Shown here: positions 1,353 through 63,000 of the stretch, in pieces
How positions within the stretch are numbered: the stretch's first letter is position 1
Layout: each line of letters opens with the position of its first letter
NCBI GenBank assembly: GCA_951406725.2
Contig: OX597823.1
Coordinates: 100,254,001-100,318,000, forward strand
Direction of reading: 5' to 3'
DNA: 64,000 bases
Source: Octopus vulgaris
Lineage: Eukaryota
Position numbers and translations under genes: made by a program
The notes under the pieces: generated by a model
Database searches by the model: none
The model's input: only the letters and a program-made list of their open reading frames with translations
Told to the model about the DNA's origin: nothing

Positions 1353-1445
<93 letters not shown>
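1353..1445. repeat. (GATA)n microsatellite between two Tx1 copies
   Basis: Direct reading. Confidence 0.98.
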
Positions 1446-1446
<1 letters not shown>

Positions 1447-4400
1447 GTTTTTATTGTGGCCACACAGGGCTAAACACAGAAAAAATGGACGAAATACAAT
1501 GTAGAGTTTTTCTTTTCGAGGTGGGATGGGTGGGACACACAAAGAAAAAACGTTCGATCAATAGGGATCTGTGGGTTATGTGGTGTATAAAAAGCAATAT
1601 ATATAAAGTTCACAGTTTAGGTGTAGCCTTGGAAAGAAAAACCTACAAAAAGCCCAAGGTCACCTCAGACAGTTCGAAATGTACACAAGAGTAAGTCACC
1701 TTACCTCTCGTTGTCTCTTTTGGTTACAGATTTAAGCTTAAAATGGTGTCGTCTTTCATACTGACCATTTTTTCCACTTTTACCCACTTTTTATTGAAAC
1801 ATTCGTTCGACAAAGCCTTCCTCTCTATTCTCGTCCTCCTTTTCAAGTGGTACTTGAAAAAGTTGACGAGAGACTGACCAGAGAGGAAGGTGTTTGTTTG
1901 TAGCCCTTTCAAACGCGTCCACCACACACATTCTTTCGCCATAGCCATCAGCGTAACGAAACCCGTTTTCCCTTCCCGTTGAAAGGAAGGTGGTGGAACA
2001 ATATTCACGATAGACTCGGCCGATAAGCGGGCCCGTCCTACACGCGACAACAGCTGTATGACGAAGGTCCACAGCTCTGAAATATCTGGACACTGCACGA
2101 GTGCGTGCAGAACGGTGTGGTCGTTCTGACCGCATCTCGGGCAGGTCGGTCCGGTGATGGTTTTCGAACCGTGCCTGTAGTTCTTCTCTCGAACAGGGAG
2201 TGCGTCTCGATAGCATTGCTAAGCCAGGGATCTCTGGAAGTTATCCATAGGCCCCGGCCCGAACGTCGTCCTGAAAAGGCGGGTTAGGAGTTTCTCGTCG
2301 ACGCCCAGGTTTGCTCCGAGTGTGTCGTCGGACCTCCCCTCCACTAGTCCTCTATAGAACGCTTTAGTCGTTTGTAAGTTGCACAAGTTTGATCCCTGAC
2401 GTCAGAGCTGCTTTAGAGCTTGGCGACACTCTCGGTGCCAATCGCCCAGTTTCGGTCTCTTCTTGATCCACGTTTGCAGTTCGGTCAGTGAGACGAGCTG
2501 CGGGAAGGCGCGCCTCACAAACGGCGCCCACACCTGTTCACCGTCATCGATGAAGCTCCAGAGATGTCGCAGTCTCAGCGCATGCCTGCGCATCATCAAC
2601 CACGACATGCCCAGTCCTCCATTTAACGGATGTTGATAGCAAATGGACTGCCTCACCATCGGAACGCCACCCTTCCACAGAAAGCGGAAGACTATGCGTT
2701 CCAGTTTGGCGATGGTAGCGTCGGGACAAGGCACGACGGTCAGGCGGTAATCGATGACGGATGCGATGTACGCGTTCGCCACCTCCGCCCGACCTTTTAG
2801 AGACAGCTTTCTCTCGGCCCATGTTTGGCTGAGAGTGACCACTCTACTCGTGATCTCGTCCCACTTCTTATCCATTTGGAGGTCCGGACTGAACCAGACC
2901 CCGAGCAATTTAACCGGTCCGTCCGTCCAGCGTCCCACTACTGAGCCGCAGTCGGACGGCATGGACTTGCTTCTCCAGGTGCCGAGTAGCAAACCCACTG
3001 ACTTTTCCGGGTTAATTTTCGCTCCCGTCACCGTTTCGTATTTTTTTTAGTGTCTCGCCTATCATCTGGATGTGTTTTTCGCTCGACACTATGATGGTGA
3101 CATCGTCCGCATATGCCGACACGCTCGTCCCGCAACCCAGTTCCCGTGGGATGCCCCTCAGTGCCGCCAGTTTCCGCAGTAGCGGCTCGAGAGTCAATAC
3201 ATACAGAAGCGCTGACAGGGGACACCCCTGACGGACCGAACGCGTGATGTCAAACGGTTTCGACAGGTGACCGTTCATCCGAATCACCGATCGGATGCCG
3301 TTATACAAGGCAGCGATCCAACCGTGGAAGACGGGACCGAAGCCAGCCGCCCTGAGGACGACCGCCAAGTACCGATGGTCTACCCTACCCAAGGCTTTAG
3401 ACTGATCCAAATTGATCAGCGCCCCACCCATGCCAGGATCCTTAACTACCCTGTCCACAATGTAGCGCATCAGATGGAGGTTGTCATGTATGGTTCTGCC
3501 CGGCACGGCGCATGTTTGCGCCCTGTCGACCAGTCTACCAATGACAAGCGCCAACCTCTCGGCTATTACTTTGGCCAAAATTTTCAAATCTGCGTTGAGC
3601 AGAGTGATGGACCTGCAATTGTTTGGGTCTTTCTTCAGCAACGTCACTGCCCCTCGGCGCACGAAACCGGGGATTCTCCCGTTTTGTTGCCAGTTGCAGT
3701 AGACTGATGCCAAGAGGTCGCCAAACAAGTCTGGCATTTGACAATACAGCTCGTAGGGTAAACCATCCAATCCAGGCCACTTATCCCTCGCACAGCCCGC
3801 CATCGCATCCAGCACGTCAGCGGCTGTGATGGGACTTTCACAACACTCCGCTTCTCTTGCCGAGAGCCGCGGCAGGTCGGTCAGGTAGGCACTGAAATCC
3901 ATCCCGCGTTCCGACCCACCACTCGCACCAAACAGTCGAGCAAAGTGCTGTTGAAAGGCCTCACACATCCTTTCGGGTTCGAGTAAACTGCATCCCTGTT
4001 GATCTATTAGAGACCGAATGGTGGCTCTGTTGTCACGTTGCGCCTCCGCTACCCGGGCCTCTCGCGCAGCTTCGATTCCTTCGTTCCTTAAGGCACGCAT
4101 TTTAGCTCTGACGACGCAACCTTCGTGTTTGGCGTTGAGGTGTTGGTCGAGGGCCATCCTCGCAGCCAGCACGTTGGTTGCGCTGCCAGTGGTAAGTGCC
4201 TCTTCTAGTTTCTTAACCAAGTCTCCCTCTACTCTATTTCGATCTGTCGTTAATTCCTTGCTAAACCTAACTGATTCCGATTTTATTGCCATTTTCAGGG
4301 CGAACCACCCTCGCTAATCCGGTTCCTGTAAACCTGTCGCGCTAAGAGCGACGTGTTCAGTTTCCAGTTACCGGGACCCTGTCTATGTGTCTTATCTAAG

Positions 4401-5905
4401 TCGAGCATACACGTCACAAATTTGTGATCTGTGTAGCTATTTTAAATTGTGGACATCCTACACTATCCCTATCTTCTGTCCTGCATAGAATTCTATCTAG
4501 ATAAGATCTCGACGATCCGACGCGGTTTGTCCAAGTCCACGTTGGCACGTTCGGATGGTCGAGTCGGAACCTGTCAGACAAATGGAAACGTCTGAGCAGG
4601 TCTTTGAGGCACTTACACCCCCTTCTATTCCTATCCATTCCCACATAGTCTAGATGCGTGTCCAATCCCCTACTAACAGTAAAGGTCTAGACGTACCCAG
4701 GAAAACTTCTAGACGTCTGAAGAAATCCGCCCGACCCGTTAAGGACTGTGCATAAACTGCCATCAGACGGAATGCACACCCATTTCTGCCATCCACGTCC
4801 AAGACAACCAGCCTACCCTCCGGGTCTAGGAATGTTGTTCTTACTTTTACATTTAGACTCTTTCGAAAAAGCACTGCGGTACCTCCACCACCCATGTTCG
4901 GCAGACAGGGAGAAAATTAAATGTCGAATTGATCGCCAAACATGGAGGCGAGGGCCCGCGGCTTGCTGAGTCTGGTTTCACTGTCATCTTCAAAGTCATC
5001 TTCACAGATGTTAGTGTTGGATGCAATGTATTCCATTAGTTTTTTATTGCCCGTGTCTATTGCTGTTAGATGTGTGGTTTTGCGAGGTCATTGATGTTTT
5101 GATTGTCTACGCGGGGGCTGTCAGGAGTTAAATATCTCCCTGCTTTACTTGCTTGTTTGGTGGGCTTTTTTGATCTTTTCCTTTTACCCCCTGTGGCTAT
5201 TTGCCATTCCGTCGAAATTTCCTCGTTGGACGAAGAGTCTGACTAATCAGAAGGGGGTAAAGGCAAAGCATTTGCGTTAATATGTATGTTTGTAGAAAAT
5301 GTTGTTGTTTTGTGCGGTGTTTTTGTTGTTGTGGTGTTAGGGGTAGAATTTGTCTTCCCGTCACTGTTATCTGTTTCCTTAGTTGTCGTCCTTGGTGCTG
5401 GTGTTGGAATGTCTTTTGATGTTGGTTGTGGTTTTGCTTCTTTATTTGGTTGCGACGTCAACGGTAATTGTGTTGGTGCTGTTTCTTTTCATGGTGCTGT
5501 TGTTGGGGTTTGTTTGCTAGTTTGTTGTTGTTCTTGGCGTTGTTCCATATTTTTATATAATTCTTGTATCAGTTGTGGGTTTGGTGGTGTTGGTAGCAGA
5601 GATTTATTTTTTTTTTGTTTTCTGATTTGTTTTTTCTTGTTTTTTCTGTCCCAGAACGCACTTTGCAATTAAGTGGTCTGGGCTGCCACAGCTGTAGCAT
5701 CGTGGTTTTTTACCTTCTGCTACCACATACAGGCTTTGCCCATATGATATTAGGTAAGTTCTCGATAGAAGACCCATCGATTTGAAGGGTCACCTCTATC
5801 GATTTACCACTCCAATTATCATTTTTAAACACGGCGATTTCCAATATGTTTATCGATTTCAAATGATAACATATCGCCGATGTTATCCATTTGGGTGGTA
5901 TTTCT
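1446..5905 (-). mobile_element. Tx1-like LINE, near full length: partial ORF1, decayed ORF2 and 3' UTR ending in AATAAA next to (ATCT)n
   Basis: APE motifs GGTAVLF, LLVGDW, WTWTN and SYLDRIL (4414-4895). RT motifs PGLDGLPYELY, ITLLNADLK, LDQSKA, VRQGCPLS and YADD (3012-4292). C-terminal region 1724-3031. ORF1 remnant with a Cys/His knuckle and Thr/Lys/Pro-rich tail at about 5240-5905. Confidence 0.92.
3012..4292 (-). pseudogene. RT domain segment of Tx1-like ORF2 (426-aa open stretch, frameshifted at both ends)
   Basis: Canonical non-LTR RT motifs including QGCPLS and YADD. Confidence 0.9.
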
Positions 5906-13044: not shown

Positions 13045-13260
13045 AAGGCGGCGAGCTGGCAGAATCGTTAGCACGCCGGGCGAAATGCGTAGCCGTATTT
13101 CGTCTGCCGTTACGTTCTGAGTTCAAATTCCGCCGAGGTCGACTCTGCTTTTCATCCTTTGGGGTCGATAGATTAAGTACCAGTTGCGTACTGAGGTCGA
13201 TCTAATCGAGTGGACCCCTCCCCAAAAGATTCGGTCCTTGTGCCTCGAGTAGAAAAGAAT
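13045..13260 (+). mobile_element. tRNA-derived SINE (family A)
   Basis: Box A-like tggcagaatcg and box B gagttcaaattcc. Related copies at about 33311, 41939, 55260, 56825 and 60290 (minus). Confidence 0.8.
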
Positions 13261-21244: not shown

Positions 21245-21581
21245 AAAAGAAATCCCACCCAGGAAGAAAAAGAGGAAAATTGTATGCTTGTCGAATACAA
21301 CACTACTGAACAATACACAAACGAAGCTATTGTGACACATCAGAGGACAAAACTCTATATCCAACATGAAGGACTGACGCGGAGATGTGCAGCAATAGGG
21401 GAAACCCTATACCGCGACTTAAAGGAAAGGAACCCGAACGCCATTTGAAATATTAACGAATTACCAAATTATGCGAAGGAAGGGGCTGATCCACGTGTGG
21501 TGAAGTCGGCCCCAGCTTCTCCAAGGAGAAAGTAAGTAGAACGTTTTACTTTTGTAAACGGACTCACTTAACTTTGGTTGT

Positions 21582-24500
21582 TTGAATGTGCGTGGTCTGA
21601 GTTCGAAGTGGAAGCAGGCGTGTTTCCTCGACGATCTCAGATCACATGATATGCATATGATGGTTGCTACAGAGACCAAGCTGAACAGTCTACAAACCTT
21701 CTCGCTTCTCCTGAATGGCTACGAGAAAATCATATCTCCTGGCCAGGCCGGACGTCGAGGGGTGTAGTGGTACTGATCCGTAAAGGATTGGCTCTGCAAA
21801 CAAGTACAGTCTATGTGGGCCCCGAAGGTGGGCTGGTCGTCCTTGATGTGACATACAGCAGTAAGGCCTTCAGGTTGATCGGACTCTATGCACCTTGTGC
21901 TAGAGGTTTCCAAACTGATTTTTATCGGCGCCTAGAGAACTTTCTCGTGACGTCGAAGACTTTAGTGGTATTACGGGACTTTAATGCTATCGTTGAGGTA
22001 CACATCGATAGTGTTGGCTCGATCCATAGAAAAATGAACTCACGTCTCGTGGATCTGCTTAAGCGGTTTCAGCTGGCAGATCGTTACAGACTTGACCATC
22101 CGAACGTCCTAGAGTGGACCTGGATGAGTGGCGACGGAAGGTTCAAGTCCTACTTAGATAGGATAGTGATAAGAACTGGAGATAAGTCTAGTTTTAGTTG
22201 TCCACAGCTTGTCCAGGTGCCCTATACTGACCATAGAATGGTCAAGTGTAGACTGGACATAGGTAGCACACTTAAGATAAAACCCGGCTACTGGAAGCTG
22301 AACAAGTCTATTTTGACTTGTGAGGCATACCGTAGCCGGATGAAGAAGTTAGTGCAGAGGGCGTTAACCGGAGCCGTGGTTAATAACCGGTGGTGGTTCG
22401 CCCTCAAAAGAGCCATTCGATTCGAGTCCATTAGGTTTAGTAAGCAAGTAAGACTAGACAGGGCTAGAATAAAAGGGCAATTAGTTAAGAACTTAGAGGA
22501 GGCGTTGAGGTTGGGCTGTGCATCTCACATTTTGGCAGCGACAACGGCATTAGACCGTCACCTCAAAACCAAACATGAGGGGTGTAGAGTTCGGGCTAAA
22601 GTGCGAGCATTGGGCCGTGAGGGAATTAATGTTGCTGGATGGGTCCGTACGATAGAACCCAGCGTGGCAATGATGCCACAATTAGGTCTCTTGCGGACGG
22701 AAACGGATGCACGGTCAAGGAGCGGGACGAGATGTGTGAGGCACTTTACAAGCACTTCGACGAGTTGTTCGGGAGGTGCGGGACGCTGGATCATGGTGAG
22801 GCCCTTAGGGACTTCCTGTCTGGCAGCCCGCATCTCTCGGCACGAGAGGCTGAGTGCTGTGAATGATCAATCACGGCCGCAGAGGTAATCGAGGTACTGG
22901 GCGAATTCCCCGGGGAGAAGTGACCGGGTCTCGTTGGTCTGCCTTATGAATTCTACAAAACTATACCAGACTTGTTCGGGCATCTGCTGGCCAGCGTCTA
23001 CGCCAATTGGCAGCAGAATGGGAGAATTCCCAAGTCTGCGAGCCGGGGGATGGTGACGTTGATCAGGAAGGACCCGAGCAAGGTGGACGATATAGGGAAC
23101 TTCAGGCCCATAACTCTGCTGAACACAGAGTTAAAGATTTTGGCCAAGGTGCTAGCGAAAAGGTTGGCGCGGGTCGTGGACAAACTTGTCGGGGAAGTGC
23201 AAACGTGCGCTATCCCGGGCAGGACGATACACGACAATTTCAACCTTATACGCTACTCCTTAGAGAGGGTGGGGAAGCTTTCTGGCGCAGGAGGGGCACT
23301 GGTACATGTAGACCGGTCCTCGAGAAGGCTGGCCTGGGCCCGACCTTCCGCTGTTGGATTGCTGCGTCGTACAGCAACATCGACTCCGTCGTCAAGGTGA
23401 ATGGTTTCCTTTCGAAGCCATTCAGGATCGAGCGTTCAGTTCGTCAGGGGTGTCCCCTGTCCCGGCTTCTAAATGTGTTGGCTCTTGAGCCTTTGCTGCG
23501 GGAGTTAGAGGCACTAGGGGGCGCACCGCATGATCTATGGTGTGGAAGAGGAGCTACGGCGTATGCTGATGACATCTCCATCATCGTGGCGGATGAAGGT
23601 CAGCTTCCAGTGGTGGAAGGGGCTATCAAAAGCTACGAGGCGGTGGCAGGAGCAAAGGTTAAGGACAAGTCAATTGGTTTGCAGCTCGGCACCTGGAGGA
23701 GCAAACCGATGCCGTCCAATAACGTCGTGGGGCGTTGGACGGAAGGTCATGTTAATCTGCTCGGAGTCTGGTTCGGGCCAGACTTCCAGGTAGAGAAAAA
23801 TTGGAGTGAGGTGGCCAGCAAGGTGACTGCTCTAACCCAGACCTGGTCTGGGCGGGCGTTATCCTTGCTAGGAAAGGCGGAGGTGGTGCAGATGTGTATA
23901 GCATCGGTTATCTCCTACCGTCTGACCGTGGTGCCTTGCCCCGATTTGTGGCTGAACAAGTTGGAGAGAATCCTTTTCCATTTATTGTGGAAAGGAGGAA
24001 AGCCACTCGTGAAGCGCTCTGTCTGCTGCCAGAAGCCACTAAAGGGTGGGCTAGGGATGTCTTGGCTGAGGATGTGAAAATTCGCGTTAAGGTTGAGGCA
24101 CCTCTGGCTTTACATGGATGGAGAGCAGATGTGGTCACCGCACGTTTGTTTCTACCCTCCGCAATTAACGTCCTTAACGGACATTGGTAATTGGATCAAG
24201 CAGAGACCTAGGCTGGGGGACTGGCAATTGGAGTGCCACCAGGCACTTCAGCTACTCTCTCGGGCGGGCAATGCCGGCAACAAGAGTTCCACCGCGGATT
24301 TCAATTGTGGGTTAGTGGAAGTTAAGTCCGAAGACGCCTTGGGGGAGACCATGGGCTACGATTAAAATCAGAGAACTTTCGGGCCGGGGTATCTTGACAA
24401 TTACCAGAAGTCTCTGGCTTGGCAGTGCTTCCGTGCGGCGTTACATGTTCGTGATAAACTGTCAAGGCACGGAAGTGCCGTCTCGCCGACATGTCTGAGG

Positions 24501-24881
24501 TGCGGGCAGGACAGGGAAACCGTCTAGCACGCATTTGTGGAGTGTCCGGAATTAACGGGACTGATAGTTTTCGCAGAGCAGCTGTTGTCATCGATGGGAA
24601 GAGTACAGCTATCAGCTGAGATTGTGCCGCCTCCTTCCCTTAACAGGGAAAGGAAGGCTTGCTTTTTCTGCGTAGTAGCTATACTGAAAGAAACAGTATG
24701 GAAGGCGCGTGTGAGAGGCATAGTGTCGGGTATCTTTATATCCGGCCAGGGGTTGGTTAACTTTTTTAGTTACCACCTCAGTAATAAGATCAGGCTGGAG
24801 AAAAGGTACCTGTCACGAGACAGATTCATGAGAAGATGGAAGCCTGTGGCGAGGAAGCTGGGAGTGTTTGGCACCAGGTAA
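21582..24881 (+). pseudogene. Tx1-like ORF2 (APE endonuclease, RT, C-terminal domain), disrupted
   Basis: Motifs spread over ORFs 21582, 21767, 22639, 22972, 23007, 24093 and 24537. Confidence 0.9.
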
Positions 24882-25135
24882 GTGGAAGCCAAAAACAGGA
24901 AAGAAAAAGCAAGGGGTCTACTCTGGTGGTCGGATGCCTATTCTTCAGAGAAGCCATTACAAATTTCATTTGTAATGAGCAACGCTTAAGTCAAAAGTTA
25001 TAAACATATTTATTAAATTATTGTAAATTTTAAACTGTAAATATTTAATCGCTACAGCTACTTCACCCTTTTATGTTTGTCTGTTCTTGTTCGTCCCCTC
25101 TTTGTAATGCCTTCATGGCAAATATTTATGAAATA

Positions 25136-25270: not shown

Positions 25271-25353
<83 letters not shown>

Positions 25354-36164: not shown

Positions 36165-36439
36165 AAACACTAATTTGATTGGCTGACAGGACACGAGTGG
36201 TCTCTATGTGTTTCGCGCCACTGGGTGACATGTGACACGAGGGTCCCTACGAAGTCCGCCACTGATTGACACGTGACGCGAATTGTCTCGACTTATTTCG
36301 CGCCATAATTGCGAATCAGCCAATCAAGACTTTCGGTTAAAATTCCATTTTCTGGGGTTCGGTGAGCCAACCAAACAGTATATAAACAGGAATTCATAGA
36401 CACTTGGGTCTCGGTTTCCAGTTCTTTTAAGAGCTAACT
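36165..36439 (+). promoter_or_regulatory. Pol II promoter-like module: inverted CCAAT pair, two TTTCGCGCC (E2F-like) sites, E-box, TATA, then a 6-bp-stem/TTTA-loop hairpin
   Basis: gattggctga at about 36177; tttcgcgcc at about 36210 and 36296; cacgtg at 36270; tcagccaatca at 36316; tatataaa at 36379; AGTTCT-TTTA-AGAGCT at 36420-36435. Confidence 0.55.
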
Positions 36440-36635
36440 TAGACCCCTGCTGCTCAACTAGAGATATGCGATTGTCTCTGCTACTAGCTTAATTTCTCTC
36501 TCTGTGTTGTTTTTTGACTACTCATTACCGACTACCCAATTGCTGACTTCTTCACATTTGTTCGACAGCCGGCGGCTACAGAAACATAACAGGTAGGCAG
36601 TTCTGCCACACCCCCACTGTACGAGGAGCCAAATA

Positions 36636-37986
36636 ATGGCAGACTCAGAGACAGACATAACAGAAGCTGACATCCGTGAACCAAAACCATTGTCTGACAT
36701 GGAGTCAGACACGGAGAAAAGAAGACCCGTAGCTAAAAGGTTAATAGCGGCACCGAGCCTGGTAGTAGGTGCCGTGAAAGAAACTCTAAACTTTGCAGCA
36801 GCAGCTGGAGGAAAAAAGAAGGAGATATGCCTTGACAACTTGGACGCTTTGGAGCAATATATTACAAGGTCCGGATCACAGACCAAATTAATACAACCCA
36901 GGGAGACGCAAGAGGACGTCGAACGGAGAACAGTGATCTTCAAGACATACAATGTCAAGGAAAGAAGAATTGGGTTCTCCACTGAAAACCAAGTAGAGAA
37001 GTGCCTTGGTCCTGTATGGGATAAAATAAAATTTATCTCCTGAGGGAAAAAATTTTCCACAGTCGAAGTGAGGTTCGGCACAGTGGAAGAAGCTAAACTC
37101 CACTCAGTGGAACCTCTGAAATCGGACGAGGTCTTTCTCCTACCTATATACATGGGCAGGAGGACCACAAAAATTACAATTACAAGGGTCCCCCCACCCC
37201 GAAATAGAGCCTGAGAGGCTGGTGGCAGCCGTAACCTCGGGCCTCAGGGACAAGATCAACATAATCAGCGCGGTGGTGGAAGAAGCAAAATTCTGGGTCG
37301 GCCAGAAAGTGACTGTCACACTGCAGGCCGAGCCAGCCACCTTAGATGAGTTCACCGAGGCGATAGACATCAATGACAACCATCTACCAGTCATGGTGGA
37401 AGGTCGCCAGCCCAGGTGTTTCCTATGCGGGAAAAAAGGGCACATCCGGAAAAACTGCGAACCAGCAGGAACAGACAAAACAGTAAAGCCCTCAACCCCT
37501 GTCGAAACGTCTGCTACCCCAGCAACAGTAGATCTAACAACGTCAACATCAGAAGAGAAAGAAGGAGAAGGATGGACAGCCGCCGCCGCAAAAAGAAAGC
37601 ACAGGAATCCATCCCCGGAAAAAGGAAAGACCGAAGGAAAACCTGAAGGGAAAAAGAGGGACATCAAAAAGGCGAAAAAACCGGAGAACAACAACAACGC
37701 CTACGTCGCGATCCGGACGGTCGACAGTGAGGTGATGCGACGTGTAGAAACACAGCACCTCCAAGAGATAGAGGTAGAGGAACATTTAAAAAAGGATCTG
37801 ATAAAGGTCTACAAAATAAATCATAAAGCCTACAATGTACTGGCGAACAATTTCAGGAAGGATGTAGGTTCTCTGCGGATGGAGGTCTCGAGTCGCCTGT
37901 ACGAGGGCCTGATCCAGCCAAACCCACGAGACCCGGTCAAGGAGGAGGCGGTTACCCCCCGCCCGGACTCGGAAGGAGCAAGGTAA
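36636..37986 (+). pseudogene. Tx1-like ORF1 with CCHC zinc knuckle; one stop (37041) and one frameshift
   Basis: CFLCGKKGHIRKNC knuckle. The TGA aligns to Arg in the paralogue (ISRG), consistent with CGA>TGA. Confidence 0.85.
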
Positions 37987-37993
37987 GTGATTT

Positions 37994-39769
37994 ATGGCTG
38001 TTCAAGTAGGTTGTATAAATGTACGTGGCCTGATGACGAACTGGAAACAGGGACGTTTTCTAAATGACATCAGGTCACACAATTTAGACATTGTTGTAGC
38101 TACTGAAACTCGGTTAAAGGGACCAAGAGATCTACTCCCGCTCCTAAATGGCTACGAGAGATATATCTCTCCATGCCGGCAGGGGGGCGGAAGTGGGGTG
38201 TTGGTCCTACTTAAAAGGAATAGGGTTTCGGAGAAAAAGGTGATTTTTGTTGACCCAGAGGGCAGACTGGTCGTCCTGGACCTGACATTCAGATGTGGTA
38301 AGGAGGTCAGGCTGGTGGCGGTGTACGCACCCCAAACACAACAGACTGATTTCTTCCAAGGCCTGGAGAAATTTCTAGGGACGTCAAAACCCATAGTGAT
38401 GCTAGGGGACTTTAACGCTATCGTCGATGCGCGTGTCGATAGCGGTGGCTCCAAAAACAATAGGACACCTAACAGTGGCTTCCGGGATCTGCTGAGTCGT
38501 TTCCAGCTGGTAGATCCATATAGACAGGAACTCCCGAACGCTCCACTGTGGACGTGGTCAAATAGCGACGGGTCTTCCAAGTCTTATATAGATAGAATTC
38601 TGGTTAGGAAAGTAGACAAAGATATAGTTAAGTATCCACTGTTCCACTTGGTCAGCTACAACGACCACAAGATGGTCACGAGTGAGCTGTACTTAGATAG
38701 CGTATGTAGAAGAGGATCCGGTTACTGGAAACTCAACAAATCCCTACTGGTGATGGAGGAGTACAGAAGCCGGATTAGGTTACTAATCCAGAGGGCGTTA
38801 ACTGGTTCCATTCTCAACAATAAATGGTGGTTAACGCTCAAGAGAGCCATAAAATACGAGTCCATCAGATATAGCATAGGACTAGCAACGAAAAAGCGTA
38901 AGAAAGAAGAGGGATTAGCTAAAGCTCTAGAAGAAGCCATAAGGTCTGGCGATGGGACCCTGGTGAAAGCGAAGAGACTGGAACTGAACCAGCACCTCGA
39001 AGTCAAACACATGGGTTGCATCGTCAGGGCTAGAATCCGCGCAATGGGAAGCGAGGGTACTAGGGCCGCTAGATGGGCACGAGTTGTGGAGGCTCAGCAC
39101 GGAAATGATTCCACAATTAAGTCTGTGACGAACGAGAAGAATGATGTGGTAAGCAAACCAGAGGAGATGTGTCAGACCTTTCAGGAGCACTTCGCCCACC
39201 TCTTCGGGGGCGGGCGTGGTCCGGATGAGGGGGAGGACCTCACGGGCCTCCTCGCCGGATTGCCGCGCCTGTCGGAGTGGGGAGCGGAGAGCTGTGAAGG
39301 GTCAATCACACTGGAGGAAGTTATGGAGGCCATAGCTGACTGTGGCAGAGGCAAGGCTCCGGGACTCGATGGTTTACCCTACGAACTATATAGAAGTATG
39401 CCAGACTTGTTCGGGCCAATACTGGCCAGCGTCTTCGCGAACTGGAATCAGAATGGGAGGATCCCCAGATCTGTGCGCCGGGGAGTGGTGACGCTGATCA
39501 GGAAAGACCCGGACAAGGGGGACAGAATAGATAATTTTAGGCCCATCACCCTGCTAAATGCAGAGGTGAAGATTTTGGCCAAGGTCTTGACGAAGAGGTT
39601 GACGGATGTCGCGAAAGATCTGATCGGGGAGGCACAAACCTGTGCAGTCCCCGGAAGAACTATTCAGGACAATCTTCACCTCATACGTTACACCATAGAG
39701 GGGTTTGAAAGTAACACTGGCAGGGATGGGGCATTGGTCCATTTAGACCAGAGTAAAGCTTTCGCCTAA
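37994..39769 (+). CDS. Tx1-like ORF2 N-terminal part: intact APE endonuclease plus the first half of RT (591 aa)
   Basis: NVRGL, ATET, GDFN, SYIDRI, NDH, PGLDGLP, RPITLLN and LDQSKAF; the frame ends at a deletion junction. Confidence 0.88.
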   Translation: MAVQVGCINVRGLMTNWKQGRFLNDIRSHNLDIVVATETRLKGPRDLLPLLNGYERYISPCRQGGGSGVLVLLKRNRVSEKKVIFVDPEGRLVVLDLTFRCGKEVRLVAVYAPQTQQTDFFQGLEKFLGTSKPIVMLGDFNAIVDARVDSGGSKNNRTPNSGFRDLLSRFQLVDPYRQELPNAPLWTWSNSDGSSKSYIDRILVRKVDKDIVKYPLFHLVSYNDHKMVTSELYLDSVCRRGSGYWKLNKSLLVMEEYRSRIRLLIQRALTGSILNNKWWLTLKRAIKYESIRYSIGLATKKRKKEEGLAKALEEAIRSGDGTLVKAKRLELNQHLEVKHMGCIVRARIRAMGSEGTRAARWARVVEAQHGNDSTIKSVTNEKNDVVSKPEEMCQTFQEHFAHLFGGGRGPDEGEDLTGLLAGLPRLSEWGAESCEGSITLEEVMEAIADCGRGKAPGLDGLPYELYRSMPDLFGPILASVFANWNQNGRIPRSVRRGVVTLIRKDPDKGDRIDNFRPITLLNAEVKILAKVLTKRLTDVAKDLIGEAQTCAVPGRTIQDNLHLIRYTIEGFESNTGRDGALVHLDQSKAFA

Positions 39770-40755
39770 CCGTCGTCCCCTGTCCGGATTCGTGGGTAAA
39801 CAAGTTGGAGAGGCAAGTCTTCCGCTTCTTGTGGAAAGGTTCCTCCCCTCTTGTGAGACGATCTATCTGTTCTCAAGAGCCGTTAAAGGATGGGTTAGGG
39901 ATGCCTTGGCTGTTGATGCGCAGACATGCGCTGAGGCTCAGGCATCTTTGGGTCTACCTGGAAGGAGATCGGGTGTGGTCTCCGCTCGCAAGACAGACTT
40001 TCCCCAGCTTTGCCAGTTTTGGTGGTAGAGAAACCTGGTTTCGTCGCAGACTAAAATCAAATATGTGGTATTCGGAGTGCCGAAAGGCTCTCATGCGCTT
40101 CCGCAGCTCGGGCAATGCCGGTGGCTTTGGTACAACCGCAGCATTCTATAGCAGGTTGGTAGAGGCCGGAAATGACGATACCCTGGGAAGGACCCTGGGC
40201 CTCGATGGTAATCAGTTGGACAGCCTGTTCCAAAGAACATTCGGACCAGGGACACTGGATAACTTTCAGAAGACCCTGGCCTGGCAGTGTTACAGAGGAG
40301 CCCTACCCGTTCGAGATAAACTCACAAGGCATGGTCACGGTGGACCTTCAGCATGCCCAAGGTGCGGGCAGGATGTGGAAACAGTCCTGCACGCCATCGT
40401 TCAATGTCCGGAGATTTCGGAAGTGTGGGTTTATGCCGAACACCTGTTGTCGGACGAGGGAAGAGTACAGCTGTCGTCTGAGTCAATCCTTAAAATTGAC
40501 CCACCTGGTTTCATGACGAACGAAGGTAAGCATTGCTTTCTCGTGATAGTAGCAGTTGCGAAAGAGGTTATATGGAAGACGAGAATGAAAGGTTTAATGT
40601 CAGACACCATGATCTCTGGCACCGCCCTAACAAACTTCTTCAGGTTCCATCTGAAGAGGAAGGTGGAGCTAGAGAAAAGGTGTCTGACAAAGTCTGTATT
40701 CAAAAAGAGATGGACGCATGTAGCACGGATGCTGGGTGTGAAAGGCCCTGCATGA
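39770..40755 (+). pseudogene. Tx1-like ORF2 C-terminal part (zf-RVT-like, CPRCG..ETVLH)
   Basis: Open 316-aa frame homologous to the other copies. Confidence 0.88.
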
Positions 40756-41372
40756 ACACACCATGATCACCTACCAAAAGTTTCAGCTGAAATAACAGGG
40801 CTCGTGGGGTCGGCTACCCTGTTCTTTTAGCTTCATTGTCCTTTTTTGTTGTTTGTTTTTCGATTTCATTATAACACCACTGTACATAACTCATCCGATT
40901 TCATTGTAAAAAGTTCCATGTTTTGACCCCAAATCATTGTATTGTCCCCATCTGTGTTAATCCGTATGGATAATAAAGAAATACTCGGTTTCCAGTTCTT
41001 CTAAGAGCTAACTGTTGCTACGCTAATCTATACAACTACTGAAAGCCTCTCGAGTAGATTCCAGCATCTTGCCCTATGAACAGTAAACTAAATGCCATTG
41101 TTAATTTTATGTTCAGTACCGTTGGGTATGCTCCACGCCACCCGAACACACAGACACAAAACATGCTAACGCTTACGAACTCTTAAAATCCACATGATTG
41201 TAAAATACGTAAAATAAATAATATTTATCTACCAACAGAAGACTTGTGTCAATTCACTTATGTACTATTGTCGTTTGTATGTAGTTTATGGCTTTGAATA
41301 ATTCGTTAAGAGTAGAACCGCGTGCAATCGTATTTCCTACACGATACGACCAAGCGTGATCCTATTTCTTAC

Positions 41373-41403: not shown

Positions 41404-41938
41404 TGTGTGTGTGCATGAATGTGTGTGTCTGTGTGTGTGCGTGTGTGTGTGCGCGCGCGCGTGTCTTTGTGTTTGTCCGCTTGACAATCGCTGTTGGTTT
41501 GTTTACGTCTCCTTAACTTAGCGGTTCGGCAAAAGAGACAGACAGATTAAGTACCAGACTTTAAAAGAACAAGTAAGGAGATCGATTTGTTCTATTCAAC
41601 TCTTCAAAGCGTGCCCCAGGATGGCCGTAGTCCAACGACAGGAACAAGTGAAGAGTAAAAGAAATGACAATCAACGGAAGACCATTCGTTATGTTGGAAC
41701 AATTATTAAGAGTCGAAAAAGGACAAGTAAATTCCTCGCTCACCGATTGAAACAGACACTACCAATGATGTTCAGAAATGATAATATATATTCTTATATT
41801 CTTTTATTCTTATATTCGTAAAGCGCAATTCAAACACAAATAACCTGTATCTGGAACTCCACGTGAATTCGGTTCTTGTAGCATAATTTTATCTCTTAAG
41901 TTAAGTCTAGGTTTGGGTGTTCCACAGATTATATTTAG

Positions 41939-42187
41939 AAGGCAGCGAACTGGCAGAAACGTTAGTACGCCGGATGATATGCTTAGCGGTATTTCGTCTG
42001 CCGCTACGTTCTGAGTTCAAATTCCGCCGAGGTCGACTTTGCTTTTCATCCTTTCGGGGTCGATAAGTACCAGTTACGCACTAGGGCGTAACTGGTTACG
42101 CACTAGGACCGATGTAATCGACTTAGTCCCTTTGTCTGTCCTTGTTTGTCTCCTCTATGTTTAGCCCCTTGTAGGCAATAAAGAATT
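41939..42187 (+). mobile_element. tRNA-derived SINE family A with a Tx1-like 3' tail
   Basis: Head matches the 13045 copy; the tail at 42145-42185 matches the Tx1 3' end. Confidence 0.8.
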
Positions 42188-44135
42188 AATTATATATTTA
42201 GAAAAGAAAACGAAACATGTGAAGTAGTTTATAAGATGTTCTAATTGCACCAACGTACATACGAGCCATCTCCTCATGGCTACCACTGTCACATCTCTCC
42301 GATAATATTACGTTTATTTTATGTTTATTGCACGTCTCTGACGTTTTGGCAGCGAATATGGATTATATATTTCATAATTTTGTATTGTTACCAATAATCG
42401 CCTTATGTTAATGAAACGTACGTAAGATGATGATATATTTAAATATCTTATAAACAACTTCACAGGCTTTGTTTTCTTCTCAAAATGGTAATATAAGAAT
42501 TCTTGAATAAAAGCTAATTGCTATGACAACTGAATAAAAAATATCTTTCAGTGAGAAATTCCAACACAAGAAAAGAATGGAAAAAAAAAGAGAGGGTGAG
42601 AATAATTTCGACCAAAAGAAAACAAAGCAAAAATGCTTCATAGAAATATAAAAAGAACGATGGTTTCTTTGAAGAAATGACGATAATGAAGACTTCAAAC
42701 GGGTTGTAGTATGACTTGATAAAATTGATTTACTGTTGAAGCATTACACCTTAGTCGTATATCATTTATAGCGATCGAACGTTCTATGTGGTCACTTGTA
42801 GACCTTCTAAAAATAGCAGCTAAATCTCCTTCTAAATACACCCAGTCATTTTGAAAATGGAAGGTCAAATTGGATAATAGCTTCGTAAATACACAAAGCG
42901 ACGGCTGGAAAACCTTTGATCGTACATTTGCTCCAACATGACCGGATCTAAACGACAGCGGCCAGTAATGGCGATATTGTTGACTCTTGATTCATAACTC
43001 TGAGAACAGTCAATCCTGCACTGAAAACATTGATTCGGTTAGCAACAGTCACCAACATCTTTCTCAGTTTGTCGTCCGAATCAGAAGTTCGATTAATTCA
43101 CGCTATCGCGGCTAACACTGAGAGAAAAAACATGTAGATACTTGAATCTGGAATGCTGGCTAAAAGGATTAACCTTTTGCTGTGAACATCTTATAAATCT
43201 ACATTAGCGTGTACATGATTGTGAAACAAAAAAGAGTAACAAATCTATGGGTCGGCTTATCTATCAATGACTAATGTCATCCCAACTCCAACAATCCTAA
43301 GGGATTGTTCCTAAGACTTGTTGATGGCCATACAAAAAGAGAGCGTTGCAAGAAACTGAATGCCCCTAAAGTGAAATGGAAGATTTGTTGGGATAGACAA
43401 ACGAATGCAATGAAGACATTTCTCTCTCAGTACAACCAGTCGCAATGGTGATTAATCGCATGGCACATGCAAGTTTTTATACCGTGTCTTGTGCTGTTAG
43501 ACAGTTTTGGTGCGCCCATATTTTGTACTAACATATAGAGTACTTCCACTTTAAGTTGCGGATTGTGAGGAGAGACAGCAGTGGGCTGAAGATAAATGAG
43601 AAACTGTTGGATAGCTGGCACCGCGGTTAATGTTCGCTACAGTGTGAAGTGATTTGTACTTTCTGGACTGAGCTGGAAGTTGTTAAAAGATGATGGCATT
43701 ATCATCCAGAACAATATGGTTTTTTTTTTTTAACTAGGATGGACGTGATCACGAAGCCACTCTTGGATGTCATAAATAACAGTGACAAATGAAATATACA
43801 CTGCTGATAGTTGTTATTGACAAACAACGGCAGTAATTTTATTCAGCTGAATATACGTTATTGATGGGTTGAAATTACCGAAATACGACAACTTTGACGT
43901 GAAATTACTTCATAAATATAAGTTTTTCTTAAAAATGCAATGAGTAAAACATGTTTTATATGACACATTCTACCAGTGTCCGAAGTTTGAAAGTGTTTAG
44001 TTACAAAAACTTATTTCTTTAAATCTGTACGTCAAAAGGTAAAGATCCGATATGAATTGTAGATACAAGATTTCAATTATGACAGCGTTTCAAATATATA
44101 CTCTATCTCTCACTTTCTCTCTCTCAAATATACAA

Positions 44136-48356: not shown

Positions 48357-48622
48357 GTGTGTGCTTGTATATTCGAGAATATATGGGTATGTGGATATGT
48401 GTGTGTTAGTATACACATATATATATGTATATATGGATATGTACCTGTGTGTGCATGTATATGTACGTATACGTGTATGTATATATGCGTGTATGTGTAT
48501 GTGTACATTTGCATGTGTATGTATATATAGGTATATGTGTGTATATATACATATATATATATACAATATATGCATACATACATATATATATGTACGTACC
48601 TACATCTCTATGTATATATACA

Positions 48623-48669
<47 letters not shown>
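48060..48669. repeat. Degenerate (TA/TG)n microsatellite
   Basis: Direct reading. Confidence 0.95.
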
Positions 48670-48672
<3 letters not shown>

Positions 48673-49060
48673 TACAGGACACCACAAATAAACGTAGAAC
48701 ACAACGAGAAACGAAAACATAAAAACAAACTAGGAAACGGACTTTTTTTTAACAACGCAGAAACAGAGTACAAGACAAACAATACAAGGAATATTCCCCT
48801 TCATCAGCTGCCCCTGGTTCGACTCAATGCGTGTTTCGAAGGCAAGAGCAGAACACGATCCGACCGAAACAATCTTTCCTGCAAAATGAATTAAATAAAA
48901 TTCTTTTGCAGAGGGGTAAAACAAGGAAAGAAAAAAAGTGACAAGAACAGGACGTAAAAGCAATACAAATAAAAATACAGTACACATAAAGAATAAAAAC
49001 AGGACAATGAAACTTTCGTTTCTCGTTGTGTTCTACGTTTATTTGTGGTGTCCTGTACTC
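48670..49060. mobile_element. 391-bp element in (TA)n with 47-bp terminal inverted repeats; inverted partial copy at about 50012-50352
   Basis: gagtacaggacaccacaaataaacgtagaacacaacgagaaacgaaa at 48670-48716 is inverted at 49014-49060. Confidence 0.85.
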
Positions 49061-49208
49061 ATATATATATATATATATAACGGGAAGCTTTATGAAAATA
49101 GACAAAAGACGAAGGCAGGTTTACGGAAATAAACAAAAGACGAAGGCAGGTGGAATACAAACAAACAATTGTATTAGTATGGCGCTCAGGAAATATAAAT
49201 AAAACAAG

Positions 49209-49246
49209 TCTTTAACGTTTCGAGCCTACGCTCTTCAACAGAAAGA
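49209..49246 (-). ncRNA. Minimal type I hammerhead-like motif
   Basis: tcttt CTGTTGA a GAGC-gtag-GCTC GAAA cg TT aaaga; one core substitution. Confidence 0.55.
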
Positions 49247-50349
49247 TACACAGAGAAGAAACACAGAAAGAAGGAGAGAAAAAAAATGCGTACAGAGGCT
49301 AGCGAATCAACATGGCGATCTGATTTCGGCCAGAAGTCAAAGATCAAACGTGAGACGCAAGAGCGAAATTAGGGGAGATAATAGGGTTAAATGACCTCGC
49401 TCCAACATAAGAGTGTGTGTGTGTATGAGAGAGTATTAGTGCGTATGAGAGGTCTGGACGTGTGTATGTATATATGATGTGATGTGTAAAGTCGTATGGT
49501 GTAGTGTAGAGAGAGGAGATGAGGGAAGAGGGGGAGGTAAGGGGGAGAGATGAGGGGGAGATGTAGGTACGTACATATATGTATGTATTACTCTCTCTTT
49601 TACTCTCTTTTACTTGTTTCAGCCATCCGGCTGAGGCCATGCTGGGGCACCGCATATATTTTATTTATTAAATTGTTATTATATGACTGAGCGCCCTCGC
49701 GTCGTTTCGTTTCTTTCCTCCAAGTAAGTGTTTATATATAATTATTACGCGCACTCTCTAACCCTTTATTTGACCTTTCCTTCCTTCCTGTCTCTCTCCT
49801 TATTTTTCACCCTTTCTGGTTTCCTTTCCTCTCTATATATCTCTCCCTCTCACTCCTCCTCATCTCTCTCACGGCTGAGTGGACTACTAACTTTCTTTTG
49901 CTCGTAGCTTTCTACAAGTCAACATCGACATTTTCTGTCTCTAGAAAGTCGATTCTAAGTTGCGCTCCGAATTTTTCCATCGTCTAGGCTTAAAAAAGCC
50001 CTCAATGTTGGTTTCATTGTCCTGTTTTTATTCTTTATGTGTACTGTATTTTTACTTGTATTGCTTTTATGTCTTGTTCTTGTTACTTTTTTTCTTTCCT
50101 TGTTTTACCCCTCTGCAAAAGAATTTTATTTAATTCATTTTGCAGAAAGGACTGCTTCGGCCGGATCGTGTTCTGCCTTTACCTTCGAAACACGCATTGA
50201 GTCGAACCAGGGGCAGCTGATGAAGGGGAATATTCCTTGTATTGTTTGTCTTGTACTCTGTTTTTGCGTTGTTAAAAAAAAAGTCCGTTTCCTAGTTTGT
50301 TTTGTTTTCGTTTCTCGTTGTGTTCAACGTTTATCTGTGGTGTCCTGTA

Positions 50350-50411
<62 letters not shown>

Positions 50412-50557
50412 TGTATATATACATATAGATGTAGGTACGTACATATATGTATGTATGTATGCATATATTTTATTTATTAAATTGTTATTATATGACAGAG
50501 CGCCCTCGCATCGTTTCGTTTCTTTCCTCCAAGTAAGATTTCATATATATATATATA

Positions 50558-55521: not shown

Positions 55522-55583
<62 letters not shown>

Positions 55584-55601
55584 TATTATTATTATTATTA
55601 T

Positions 55602-56745
55602 TGAGTGAGAGAGCAATTCATGCCATCAAAGTGAGACTGGGGCAAAATATACGAAGCCCAATATACCCATCATGAATACCCGTCTGATAAGGGTACACCA
55701 GGCACATGCATCACAACCATATGTGCGCAACATGCTGATCTCATATCAAGACAAACAGCACATGACCTTGCAGGTGGGGCCCAGTTAGAATTTTCTTCAG
55801 GTTGAGTAGCCCATCCCGCTCAAAAGGTCCCTGAATAAGGGTTGTTTAAGGATGTTGAAAGAACCACCCATGTTTCCAGAGGTGAATTATCCAAACCCCA
55901 AAGAATCCCTCTCAACACATGGCTATGATGCTCCCCCACTACTTCAGCTCGTGATCAGAGATGCACATATCGTCAGCCACTAAGGGACATACTCAACTGG
56001 TTAAGGTCAAACAACTGAGTGTGGTATTGAGCAGAATATTTGCTGTAGCCCATCTTTTATACCAAGACAAAACAATGTACATGATTACACTTCCAATCAG
56101 TACTGTTATTATTATTATTATTATTATTATTGAGTGAGAGAGCAGTTCATGCCATCAAAGTGACACTGGGGTAAAATATACGAAGCCCAATATACCCATC
56201 ATGACTACCCGTCTGATAAGGGTACACCAGGCACATGCATCACAACCATGTGTGCAACATGGTGATCTCATATCAAGATAAACAGCACATGACCTTGCAG
56301 GTGGAGCCCAGTTAGAATTTTCTTCAGGTTGAGTAGCCCATCCCGCTCAAACGGTCCCTGAATAAGGGTTGTTTAAGGATGTTGAAAAAACCACCCATGT
56401 TTCCAGAGGTGAATCATTCAAACCCCAAAGAATCCCTCTCAACACATGGCTATGATGCTCCCCCACTACTTCTGCTCGTGATCAGAGATGCACATATCGT
56501 CAGCCACTAAGGGACATGCTCAACTGGTTAAGGTCAAACAACTGACAAGCAAATCTGTGGTATTGAGCAGAATATTTGCTGTAGCCCATCTTTTATACCA
56601 AGACAAAACAATGTACATGATAACACTTCCAATCAGTTAAGATCAGAAGCCATGAGAGCCACTGCCTGGTACTGCTGAGAGCCACTGCCTGGTACTGCTG
56701 AGAGCCACTGCCTGGTACTGCTGAGAGCCACTGCCTGGTACTGCT
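55602..56745. mobile_element. Two tandem copies of a ~500-550-bp non-coding repeat flanked by (TAT)n
   Basis: 55602-56100 closely matches 56131-56635; a 23-bp unit repeats 4 times at 56654-56745. Confidence 0.88.
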
Positions 56746-56754
56746 TATTATTAC

Positions 56755-56824
<70 letters not shown>

Positions 56825-57479
56825 AGAGTGGCGAGCTTGCAGACTCATTAGCTTAGCGACATTTCGTCCGTCTGAGTTCAAATTCCGCCGAAGTCGACTT
56901 TGCCTTTCATCCTTTCGGAGTCAATAAATTAAGTACTAGTGAAACACTGGGGCTCGATGAAATCGACTGGTTCCCCCAACCACCACCTAAATTTCAGGCC
57001 TTGTACCTTTAGTAGAAAGGATTATCATTGTTATTAAGAAAGTGGTGAGCTGATAGAATCGTTAGCACGTTGGACGATTATAGAACACAGCTGTTTCGGC
57101 ATTTTGCATCTCGTGAGCCAAAAGTACCCGGACCTTTTGAACCTAAATAAACCACAGGCTTTGTTTAAAATTTCAGAGAACAACAGAAATCATCATGCAA
57201 ATAAGGACCTTTTTGTCTGTTGAAAACAATGTATGAGTATTCGGGGCTGTTTTTTCTTTTGTTTTGGAGGTTTTTGTTCCTACTGAAGGACCTACACAAA
57301 TGATTTGTTTAGAGTAAATCATCAAATCGGCATTGCCCGATAGGTGGCGAAGCGATTGCAGAACAGCGTGAGATGAAGCGTTTTACTCAAGAACACAGCG
57401 CATCACCCGGTCCAGGAACTGAAACCACGATCTCTCAATCGTGATTGCAACACCCTAACCACTAGGCCACGCCCTTCAC

Positions 57480-57481
<2 letters not shown>

Positions 57482-57544
<63 letters not shown>

Positions 57545-57790
57545 TTTCTTTATTGGCCACGCAGGGCTGAACACAGAGGGGACAAATACAAATGTAGAGC
57601 TTGTCTTTTCAAAAATGAAAAAGAGGGGAAAAATAAGAAAGTAAAATTCCGATCAAAAGGATCGGGGAGGGGGGAAACGATCAAAAGGGATCGTGTATCA
57701 CAGAAGAGTTTTGAAAATGTAAAAAGTTAGATAAGGTTTATCCGTGGAAAGAAAAGCCTACGGAAAAGACCACGGTAACCTCAGACAAGG
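57482..57790 (-). mobile_element. Tx1 3' UTR-only insertion with (GATA)n at 57482-57542
   Basis: tttattggccacgcagggctgaacacaga...aaatacaaatgtagag...cacggtaacctcagaca is homologous to 1449-1671. Confidence 0.85.
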
Positions 57791-58224
57791 AGGGAATAAA
57801 CACGAGAGCAAAGTGCTCTCTCTCTCTTTTCGATTTACAGGATCACAAATATGTTTAGAGGTATAATGCATGTATGATTTAGTTGTTTGTGGATGCAATC
57901 GTGTTGTTGCTGTTGTTGCTGCTGTCGTAGCAATTGTTGTTGTTGTTCAGTCCATGGTTATCCCCGACTGGGCAGCTCTAGCACTAGAAGTCTTTTCAGC
58001 CATGAATTTTGTACATTTAAGACTACGGAGTTCAACGTTTCCTTCCTTTTCCCTAGACGCCGACGTGTGATTTGAGGAAGATTTTGCTGCTATTTCTTGC
58101 AAGTGACCGAATAAAGGGCTTCACTGTTGACTTGAGACATTTATGTCGGTGTGTGTGTGTGTGTGTGTGTGACAACAACTGTTATCTAAAGATAACGATT
58201 CTGTCAGCACGCTGCCTTAAATAA

Positions 58225-58278
<54 letters not shown>

Positions 58279-58280
<2 letters not shown>

Positions 58281-58835: not shown

Positions 58836-58869
<34 letters not shown>

Positions 58870-61983: not shown

Positions 61984-63000
61984 AATCTCTTTTATTTGCC
62001 ACAAGGGTGAAAGATGAGGGGGACAATACAAAACAGACATAAAGTGTGAGGGTTTACATATAAGGAAATGCTAAAATGAAAAGTATACACGATATACATT
62101 AGAAGGGTACATGACACTAGAAAAAGAGGGAAAAAAAGGATCGTAATGGGATCCTCCTTATTCAGGAGGACCTCTAGAGATAATCAAGGAACCCCACCAT
62201 CCAAGATCACCCTGAGTACCAAGAATGAGAGCCCACTCCAACTTCATAGGCCTACCTATGGTACCATCCATTCTTGCCATTTTTGTAACCTTCATCCACC
62301 TTTTGATAAATTCACTCGAGGACAGCACGTCCCTCTCCACCCTCACTTTCCTTTTCAAGTGAAACTCGAAAAAATCGATGAGGGCTTTACCAAAGAGGAA
62401 AGTTTCTGTCCTCATTCTTTTCAGCCTTGTCCACCAGATAACCTCTTTCGCCACAGCCACCAGACAAAGGAACACAGCCTTGCCAGCCCGATTAAAGGAG
62501 GACGGCAGGGCAACCATCTTTATGGATTCGGACGACAGACGGATCTGTCCTACACACGACAGATGGATCTGTTGGACATAATTCCACAAGTCAGCAATGC
62601 CCGGACACTGAACGAGTGCATGCAGAACGGTTTTGTCGCTCTGTGAGCACCTCGTATAAGCCCGTCTGACAGTCTTGACTCCAATGCAACAGTATGTGAC
62701 CGTGCATCTTGTGATATTTTCTACCATGTCAGATGGCAGGTTTAGAGCTACCCTTCTCCCATCTCTGTTTACAAATTTTCTTGCAAATTTTAATTCTCCT
62801 TCGTCTATGTGGAAGCATTCCATATTCCTCGCCGCTGACGCAAAAGACGTAGGGGCGATATTTGCATTTTTATCTTTTATTTCTTTCGAATTGTTGTTGT
62901 TGCTGCTGCTTCTGCATCTGTATGGAAAACAATTAAATTTTAGAAAAATTAAATTGTTTTCCATACTTACAGTTGAAAAAGTTTCAATCAGTCAAACCGG
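61984..63000 (-). mobile_element. Internally deleted Tx1-like element: ORF1-like start fused to the ORF2 C-terminus, plus 3' UTR
   Basis: ORF 62158-62964: SFASAA...RCTVTY resembles the ORF1 N-terminus and is followed by RCSQSDKTVLHALVQCP...FHLKRKVRVER. The 3' UTR has gtattgtccccc...gtggcaaataaa. Confidence 0.8.

What the first reader, a model, noticed from the sequence alone, without database searches (positions are those of the whole stretch)
41939..42187. tRNA-SINE with a 3' tail matching the Tx1 3' terminus: candidate Tx1-dependent SINE and tail swap
Seen: the SINE tail tttgtctcctctatgtttagccccttgtaggcaataaagaa (42145-42185) aligns without gaps to the Tx1 end tttgtcccctctgtgttcagccctgcgtggccaataaagaa (minus strand, about 57546-57586). 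Other copies of the same SINE head (13045, 56825) have a different tail. Known: shared 3' tails mark SINE-LINE partnerships and are typical of stringent LINEs rather than poly(A)-recognising mammalian L1. Inference: these Tx1 elements recognise a 3' RNA motif and a SINE subfamily has captured it.
Basis: partly seen in the sequence, partly recalled or inferred. Interest (0 to 1): 0.7.

Follow-up and report, generated by a model that had tools for sequence, protein, structure and literature searches.

The report
Octopus SINE wearing a Tx1 tail
A young, very abundant short jumping element in this probably octopus genome ends in the same 45-letter tail as a whole group of L1/Tx1-type retrotransposons that have no poly(A) tail, so these relatives of human L1 likely choose the RNA they copy by that tail, which is predicted to fold into a small hairpin.

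Summary
Confirmed and genome-wide. The SINE tail matches the LINE end at 57.5 kb (33/41, ungapped). The body-tail junction is not unique: 44,286 exact matches, and about 200,000 copies estimated from a 600-kb sample. Tailed copies are 5% diverged against 16-17% for copies with the older tails, so this tail is the newer one. The last ~45 nt are conserved across ten L1/Tx1-type lineages whose 3' UTRs are otherwise at background identity. None of 90 such LINE ends has poly(A), and a 4-bp terminal hairpin covaries, though it is energetically weak. Tx1 rather than L1 rests on anatomy, not a reference tree. Tail recognition itself is inferred, untested. About a third of tails run into the SINE's own position 50. 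This scan already noted the same partnership on other DNA of this genome (e1-9594145). I found no paper describing it in ten searches, but Repbase, Dfam and the 1994 octopus SINE paper were not seen.

The parts
41939..42187 (+). Full-length SINE copy of the tailed subfamily (head, body, LINE-type tail)
   Evidence: the 40 scored genome candidates all reach query position 246-249 of 249
41951..41961 (+). A-box-like motif of a Pol III promoter
   Evidence: sequence; regex hit. tRNA origin not shown
42013..42025 (+). B-box-like motif (8 of 9 to the recalled consensus)
   Evidence: read by eye; the strict regex did not hit
42069..42096 (+). Near-palindromic fold-back insertion private to this copy
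   Evidence: 28 nt, 93% self-complementary
42131..42187 (+). LINE-type tail: pyrimidine-rich tract, hairpin, AATAAAG end, no poly(A)
42164..42176 (+). Predicted 4-bp terminal hairpin (3 of 4 pairs intact in this copy)
41930..41938 (+). 5' target-site duplication
42193..42201 (+). 3' target-site duplication
57546..57787 (-).
1445..4554 (-). Longer broken copy of the (TATC)n-associated LINE group, with RT and zf-RVT
36440..40983 (+). Near full-length two-ORF LINE (ORF1 zinc knuckle; APE, RT, zf-RVT; broken frames) with a 30-bp flanking duplication and a variant of the tail
21576..25135 (+). LINE of a family that inserts at one site of a different SINE; divergent variant of the tail
61985..62654 (-). 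Truncated LINE 3' end with a tail variant, followed by (TTC)n
13045..13260 (+). Same SINE head and body with the older tail
56825..57025 (+). Degenerate SINE copy with the older tail

Best explanation
A SINE with about 200,000 estimated copies carries the conserved, poly(A)-less 3' end of this genome's L1/Tx1-type LINEs, which it likely acquired by a template switch and which likely lets the LINE's ORF2 protein copy it. Shown: the shared tail, the subfamily, its youth relative to the older tails, target-site duplications, absence of poly(A), and conservation confined to the last ~45 nt across LINE lineages and ORF1-only passengers. Inferred: Pol III transcribes the SINE; ORF2 binds the tail (pyrimidine tract plus small hairpin) and starts reverse transcription just after it. 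Because the consensus has no run of four T, the RNA likely reads through into the flank, and those few extra bases likely pair with the nicked target, which would explain why each tail variant prefers its own flank. The most likely drivers are the families ending in the same hairpin as the SINE, not the (TATC)n family at 57.5 kb.
For: Junction 44,286 exact, tail 81,605 exact, controls 0. 44 tailed copies among 130 body hits in 60 arbitrarily placed 10-kb stretches. Body divergence 5.1% (n=40) against 16.2% (n=19) and 16.9% (n=15), p about 3e-8. TSD called in 18 of 21 solo full-length copies, 13 bp or more in 14. 71 of 79 ORF2-verified LINE ends not selected by tail score 40 or more against the SINE tail; 1.3% of 600 random windows do, mostly SINE copies. 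Pairwise identity among 10 lineages is 0.73 in the last 45 nt (shuffled 0.49) and 0.47-0.55 further upstream (shuffled 0.46-0.53). 0 of 90 LINE ends and 1 of 73 SINE ends have an A run. Hairpin: 67 of 76 positions pair in 19 distinct arm pairs, null 59.7 +/- 2.1, all four Watson-Crick types at one position. Intact 1,128-1,134-aa ORF2 frames exist. One LINE family matches the SINE's last 45 nt at 43, and 6 of 15 of its fetched ends share the (A/C)AGAA flank preferred by one SINE variant (6 of 10 against 3 of 43, p=0.0006).
Against: No binding or mobilisation assay. RNAalifold found no consensus structure on 27 aligned ends, and four tails fold little or no better than shuffles (z +1.1 to -1.9). 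The covariation test allowed loops of 4-6 nt and does not control for relatedness. The tail holds AATAAA, so part of its conservation may serve polyadenylation. No LINE was found with the SINE's commonest flank (0 matches; none among 30 of 411 matches examined). LINE ends with the exact SINE-like terminus are few (55 for one pattern) next to 6,687 for the (TATC)n family. If flanks are RNA-determined, flank comparison cannot exclude that family.
Confidence: 0.72

Rival explanations
1. The tail came from a Tx1-type LINE, but the LINE protein is relaxed: the conserved end serves transcript 3' processing (AATAAA plus upstream U-rich tract), and the SINE is copied by cis-escape and end-target pairing without specific tail binding.
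For: AATAAA is the best-conserved part of alignment A1; folding support is weak; flank preference tracks the SINE tail variant.
Against: A Pol III element has no evident need to keep a poly(A) signal, yet the tailed subfamily expanded to about 200,000 copies; no copies carry poly(A); compensatory changes sit in the hairpin, outside AATAAA.
Confidence: 0.15
2. The abundant (TATC)n-associated family, named by the first reader, is the main mobiliser, and the SINE's different flanks come from its own read-through bases.
For: It is the most numerous tail-bearing family counted (6,687 exact ends) and matches 37 of 45.
Against: Its hairpin differs from the SINE's; other families match 43 of 45; only 154 SINE-type tails abut TATC.
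Confidence: 0.1
3. The junction is a chance insertion of a tiny truncated LINE at a SINE end, or the tail similarity is chance.
For: The tail is pyrimidine-rich and short.
Against: 44,286 exact junctions; shuffled maximum 27 of 41; TSDs enclose head and tail together.
Confidence: 0.01

Closest known systems
Maize/sorghum ZmSINE2, ZmSINE3 with LINE1-1_ZM; Chlamydomonas SINEX-3_CR with L1-1_CR (Ohshima 2012, PMC3472496, part 1 of 3 read; Ohshima 2013, PMC3747384, passages)
   Same: L1-clade LINE and SINE share a ~45-50-nt 3' end, conserved across LINE families, with a hairpin and compensatory changes.
   Different: Those are plant and algal; the algal pair is stated to end in poly(A). [quoted passage not shown] Here: an animal, no poly(A), about 200,000 copies.
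Crocodilian SINEU with Tx1-Mar (Kojima 2015, PMC4494074; part 1 of 5, section 19 and passages read)
   Same: A SINE proposed to be mobilised by Tx1-clade elements; shared target preference inside another repeat.
   Different: SINEU has snRNA heads and poly(A) tails, and no LINE sharing the SINEU-1 3' terminus was detected. Here the link is the shared tail.
Tail exchange in SINE superfamilies: MetaSINE, DeuSINE, bivalve HCD SINEs (PMC4824008, PMC11481361, PMC4758252; passages)
   Same: One head and body with alternative tails, read as a change of partner LINE.
   Different: Partners named in the passages read are CR1, CR1-Zenon, L2, Nimb and I; 'Tx1' and 'octopus' occur 0 times in the main text of PMC11481361.
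Octopus tRNA-derived SINEs OK, OR1, OR2 (Ohshima and Okada 1994; not held; recalled)
   Same: The head and body probably belong to one of these described families (recalled, untested).
   Different: Whether this tail or a LINE partner was described there could not be checked.

Membership tests
SINE | Short, non-coding, interspersed, high copy, common 5' and 3' ends | tested here: met
   232-nt majority sequence
SINE | Target-site duplications | tested here: met
   18 of 21 solo full-length copies
tRNA-derived SINE | Head homologous to a tRNA, with A and B boxes | tested here: inconclusive
   A-box-like and B-box-like motifs present; ARAGORN 0 hits, no Rfam tRNA match; no comparison with host tRNAs
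tRNA-derived SINE | Pol III transcription | not testable with these tools
   No run on record as RNA was listed (LINE query)
Deu/Nin SINE superfamily | Nin domain in the body | not tested
L1 superfamily (L1/Tx1) LINE | Two ORFs; ORF2 with APE endonuclease, RT and C-terminal zinc motif, closest to L1 | tested here: met
   Pfam Exo_endo_phos, RVT_1, zf-RVT; human L1 ORF2 E=4e-66 against R2 4e-26
Tx1 clade | RT groups with curated Tx1 elements rather than L1 | tested here: inconclusive
   Quick tree: seven octopus rows, an Argonauta protein and one unnamed protein form one clade (SH-aLRT 99); no curated Tx1 reference was in the set
Tx1 clade | Gag-like ORF1 with a zinc knuckle (recalled as typical) | tested here: met
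   zf-CCHC in 3 of 4 ORF1s of full-length elements, one above cut-off
Tx1 clade | Target-specific families | tested here: met
   28 of 30 copies of one family at one site; (TATC)n family; other families look unspecific
Stringent LINE-SINE pair | Shared 3' sequence | tested here: met
   43 of 45
Stringent LINE-SINE pair | Conserved 3' stem-loop | tested here: inconclusive
   Covariation p=0.0006 but no RNAalifold consensus and weak energies
Stringent LINE-SINE pair | Tail required for retrotransposition | not testable with these tools
   Needs a cell assay

The most novel reading that the evidence does not exclude
An animal L1-superfamily lineage uses a folded, poly(A)-free RNA tail for template choice and supports a whole guild of passengers (a 200,000-copy SINE and ORF1-only elements). 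Target choice is partly written in the RNA: read-through bases after the tail pair with the nicked DNA, so a source copy nested in its own head steers new copies into other copies of the SINE, where in-register joining re-tails older SINEs and builds 184-bp arrays.
Probability: 0.35. Interest if true: 0.72.

Novelty: new variant of a known kind. Interest (0 to 1): 0.52.

Why it matters
Human L1 picks templates by poly(A), and tail-sharing SINEs are rare in the L1 clade (three, in plants and an alga, in Ohshima's survey). An animal L1-type lineage with intact young copies, a defined 45-nt tail, natural stem variants and a hugely successful passenger would let one test directly whether stringent recognition is ancestral in this clade, and compare its ORF2 with the solved human L1 ORF2 structures. 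It also names a probable engine for a large share of the octopus SINE expansion.

Tried and rejected
Chance or unique junction: rejected. The 57.5-kb family as main partner: disfavoured. The 25-kb family as partner: 0 SINE tails at its specific site. A LINE targeting SINE position 50: none found; 26 or more of the 30 loci from the position-17 search were SINE variants, with 1 ORF2-bearing LINE and 2 other elements. RNAalifold consensus: none. Test that nested copies carry an older head: not significant (p=0.31, n=9), and its class labels were crude. Homology of old and new tails: weak (p=0.06 and 0.02), not claimed. Partner of the old tails: not identified; 20 of 198 hits lacked a SINE body and were not tested for ORFs. 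tRNA identity: no hit. Expression: no RNA holder listed. The careful tree did not finish; the quick one was used. Paper searches found no description of an octopus SINE with a Tx1 tail. Supplements, Repbase, Dfam, SINEBase and the library behind PMC13282606 (passages read) were not seen and may hold this family.

Full report
Setting. The window lies in a 2.8-Gb genome of 227 contigs. The nearest named ORF2 relative is from Argonauta, and PMC13282606 (passages) gives 2.8 Gb for Octopus vulgaris, so an octopus is likely; this is inference.

Observation. The SINE at 41939-42187 has a 9-bp target-site duplication. Its last 41 nt match the minus-strand end at 57586-57546 at 33 of 41 without gaps; 200 shuffled tails reached at most 27 anywhere in the window. 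The copies at 13045 and 56825 share head and body but have a C-rich tail. The 57.5-kb element is a ~240-nt 3' UTR fragment. It matches the RT-bearing element at 1445-4554 (72% over 315 nt), and 13 of 30 relatives had ORF2 sequence upstream, none a SINE head.

The junction is a subfamily. All 40 scored candidates of 5,018 reached the end of the query. A 34-nt junction pattern has 44,286 exact matches and a 30-nt tail pattern 81,605, with reversed controls 0. In 60 arbitrarily placed 10-kb stretches, 130 body hits split into 44 with this tail, 58 with another and 28 too short to class, which scales to roughly 200,000 copies (rough: arrays cluster). Body divergence from each group's own majority is 5.1% (n=40) against 16.2% (n=19) and 16.9% (n=15) for two older tails; 10 further old-type copies were unassigned. 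The new tail is therefore derived. TSDs were called in 18 of 21 solo full-length copies, 13 bp or longer in 14; the script allowed small shifts, so short calls may be chance. Head and tail are also covered, and the tail-to-position-50 join seen, in contigs of runs labelled as three other organisms and one more (X16, X18, X19, X20).

The LINEs. Intact relatives of the window's 36.4-41.0-kb element are ~5.2 kb, two-ORF, with 1,128-1,134-aa ORF2 frames and TSDs of 11-19 bp in the clear cases. ORF2 has APE, RT and zf-RVT domains, ORF1 a zinc knuckle. Human L1 ORF2 is the closest solved structure (E=4e-66; R2 4e-26). The tail-bearing rows form one clade in a quick tree, which held no curated Tx1 reference. 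'Tx1' therefore rests on anatomy and on target-specific families: 28 of 30 copies of the 25-kb family sit at one site, nearly all in another SINE, and one group ends in (TATC)n.

The tail is a lineage-wide 3' end. Of 99 distinct ORF2-verified ends, 90 score 40 or more against the SINE tail; leaving out the 20 found through tail patterns, 71 of 79 do, against 1.3% of 600 random windows. These ends come from a few searches, so families are unevenly sampled. Across 10 lineages identity is 0.73 in the last 45 nt and at shuffle level further upstream. None of the 90 has an A run of 8; 1 of 73 SINE ends has 6 A. A 4-bp hairpin before the AATAAA-like motif pairs at 67 of 76 positions in 19 distinct arm pairs (null 59.7 +/- 2.1). 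Against this, RNAalifold gave no consensus, energies are weak and the permutation ignores relatedness.

Which partner. Over the last 45 nt the SINE majority matches one LINE family at 43, an intact family at 39, the 57.5-kb copy at 37 and the other window LINEs at 33-37 (gapped alignments). The longest match, 54 of 58, is to a non-autonomous element found: 9 of 20 ten-kb loci show an ORF1 upstream of its end and none an adjoining ORF2. It may be the donor or a sister of the donor; the autonomous donor with the full 58 nt was not found. The 57.5-kb group has 6,687 exact ends before TATC, while SINE-type tails have 154, and none lies at the 25-kb family's site. The 43/45 family begins its flank with (A/C)AGAA in 6 of 15 ends, including an insertion at position 16-17 of the SINE head (another). 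One SINE tail variant prefers the same flank (6 of 10 against 3 of 43), and 1,499 SINE tails abut that head site.

Self-nesting. 27,810 tails run straight into SINE position 50 (25 of 73), with 184-bp arrays of ten or more units. Of 75 full-length units followed by a position-50 unit, 73 have no extra head upstream, and 19 are followed by an old-type or truncated remainder. Solo copies also often begin their flank with the same few bases (15 of 62 AGGTA), while no LINE with that flank was found. The majority sequence has no run of four T. I infer read-through RNA whose end pairs with the target. In-register insertion, wholesale copying of multimers and unequal crossing-over all remain possible; the one test tried was not significant.

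Mechanism. Shown: shared tail, subfamily, age order, TSDs, no poly(A). Inferred: capture by template switch, Pol III transcription, ORF2 recognition of the tail, priming aided by read-through bases. Confidence 0.72.

Literature. Tail sharing between SINEs and LINEs, and tail exchange, are established (PMC4824008, PMC11481361, PMC4758252; passages). In the L1 clade Ohshima found 3 such SINEs, plant and algal (PMC3472496 part 1 of 3; PMC3747384 passages). SINEU is linked to Tx1-Mar by target, ends in poly(A), and no LINE sharing the SINEU-1 end was detected (PMC4494074, part 1, section 19, passages). PMC5804259 and PMC10294476 (passages) added nothing on this pair. Ten searches found no description of it; repeat databases, supplements and the 1994 octopus paper were not seen. 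Earlier notes of this scan on other DNA of the same genome report the same partnership and the SINE-targeting LINEs; they are leads, not independent support.

Verdict. Real, mostly as read, with the partner reassigned within the same LINE lineage. A new variant of a known kind, already seen by this scan; interest 0.52.

Noticed in passing
G000:C1:4676263-4677963; genome-wide: 184-bp tandem arrays of the SINE lacking its first 49 nt; 27,810 exact tail-to-position-50 joins.
   Followed up: partly
window 21576-25560; L201-L230: A LINE family inserts at one site of a different SINE head (28 of 30 copies at the same flank).
   Followed up: partly
L091-L140: ORF1-only non-autonomous elements of about 1.5-3 kb, often head to tail, with the closest 58-nt match to the SINE tail and a CAGT flank.
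   Followed up: partly
window 36410-36439 and 40984-41013; L330: The near full-length LINE has a 30-bp flanking duplication, and a relative (L297/L330) sits in a similar flank, suggesting a preferred site.
   Followed up: no
L325-L327, L335-L341: Young intact LINEs stacked head to tail at 5.2-kb spacing; several share one target sequence in an unidentified repeat.
   Followed up: no
window 42069-42096; L003: Fold-back palindromic insertion at the same body position in independent SINE copies.
   Followed up: no
older-tail SINE copies, e.g. window 13045-13260: The older tails also hold a short hairpin with the same five-base loop; overall similarity to the new tail is not significant. Their partner LINE is unknown.
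   Followed up: partly
window 55531-58906, 48557-50477, 13536-14436: Long inverted repeats of 244-570 nt at 92-98% identity, with tandem units; possibly foldback or MITE-like elements.
   Followed up: no
L315: A LINE end is followed by sequence that looks like the start of a histone H3 gene (recalled resemblance, untested).
   Followed up: no
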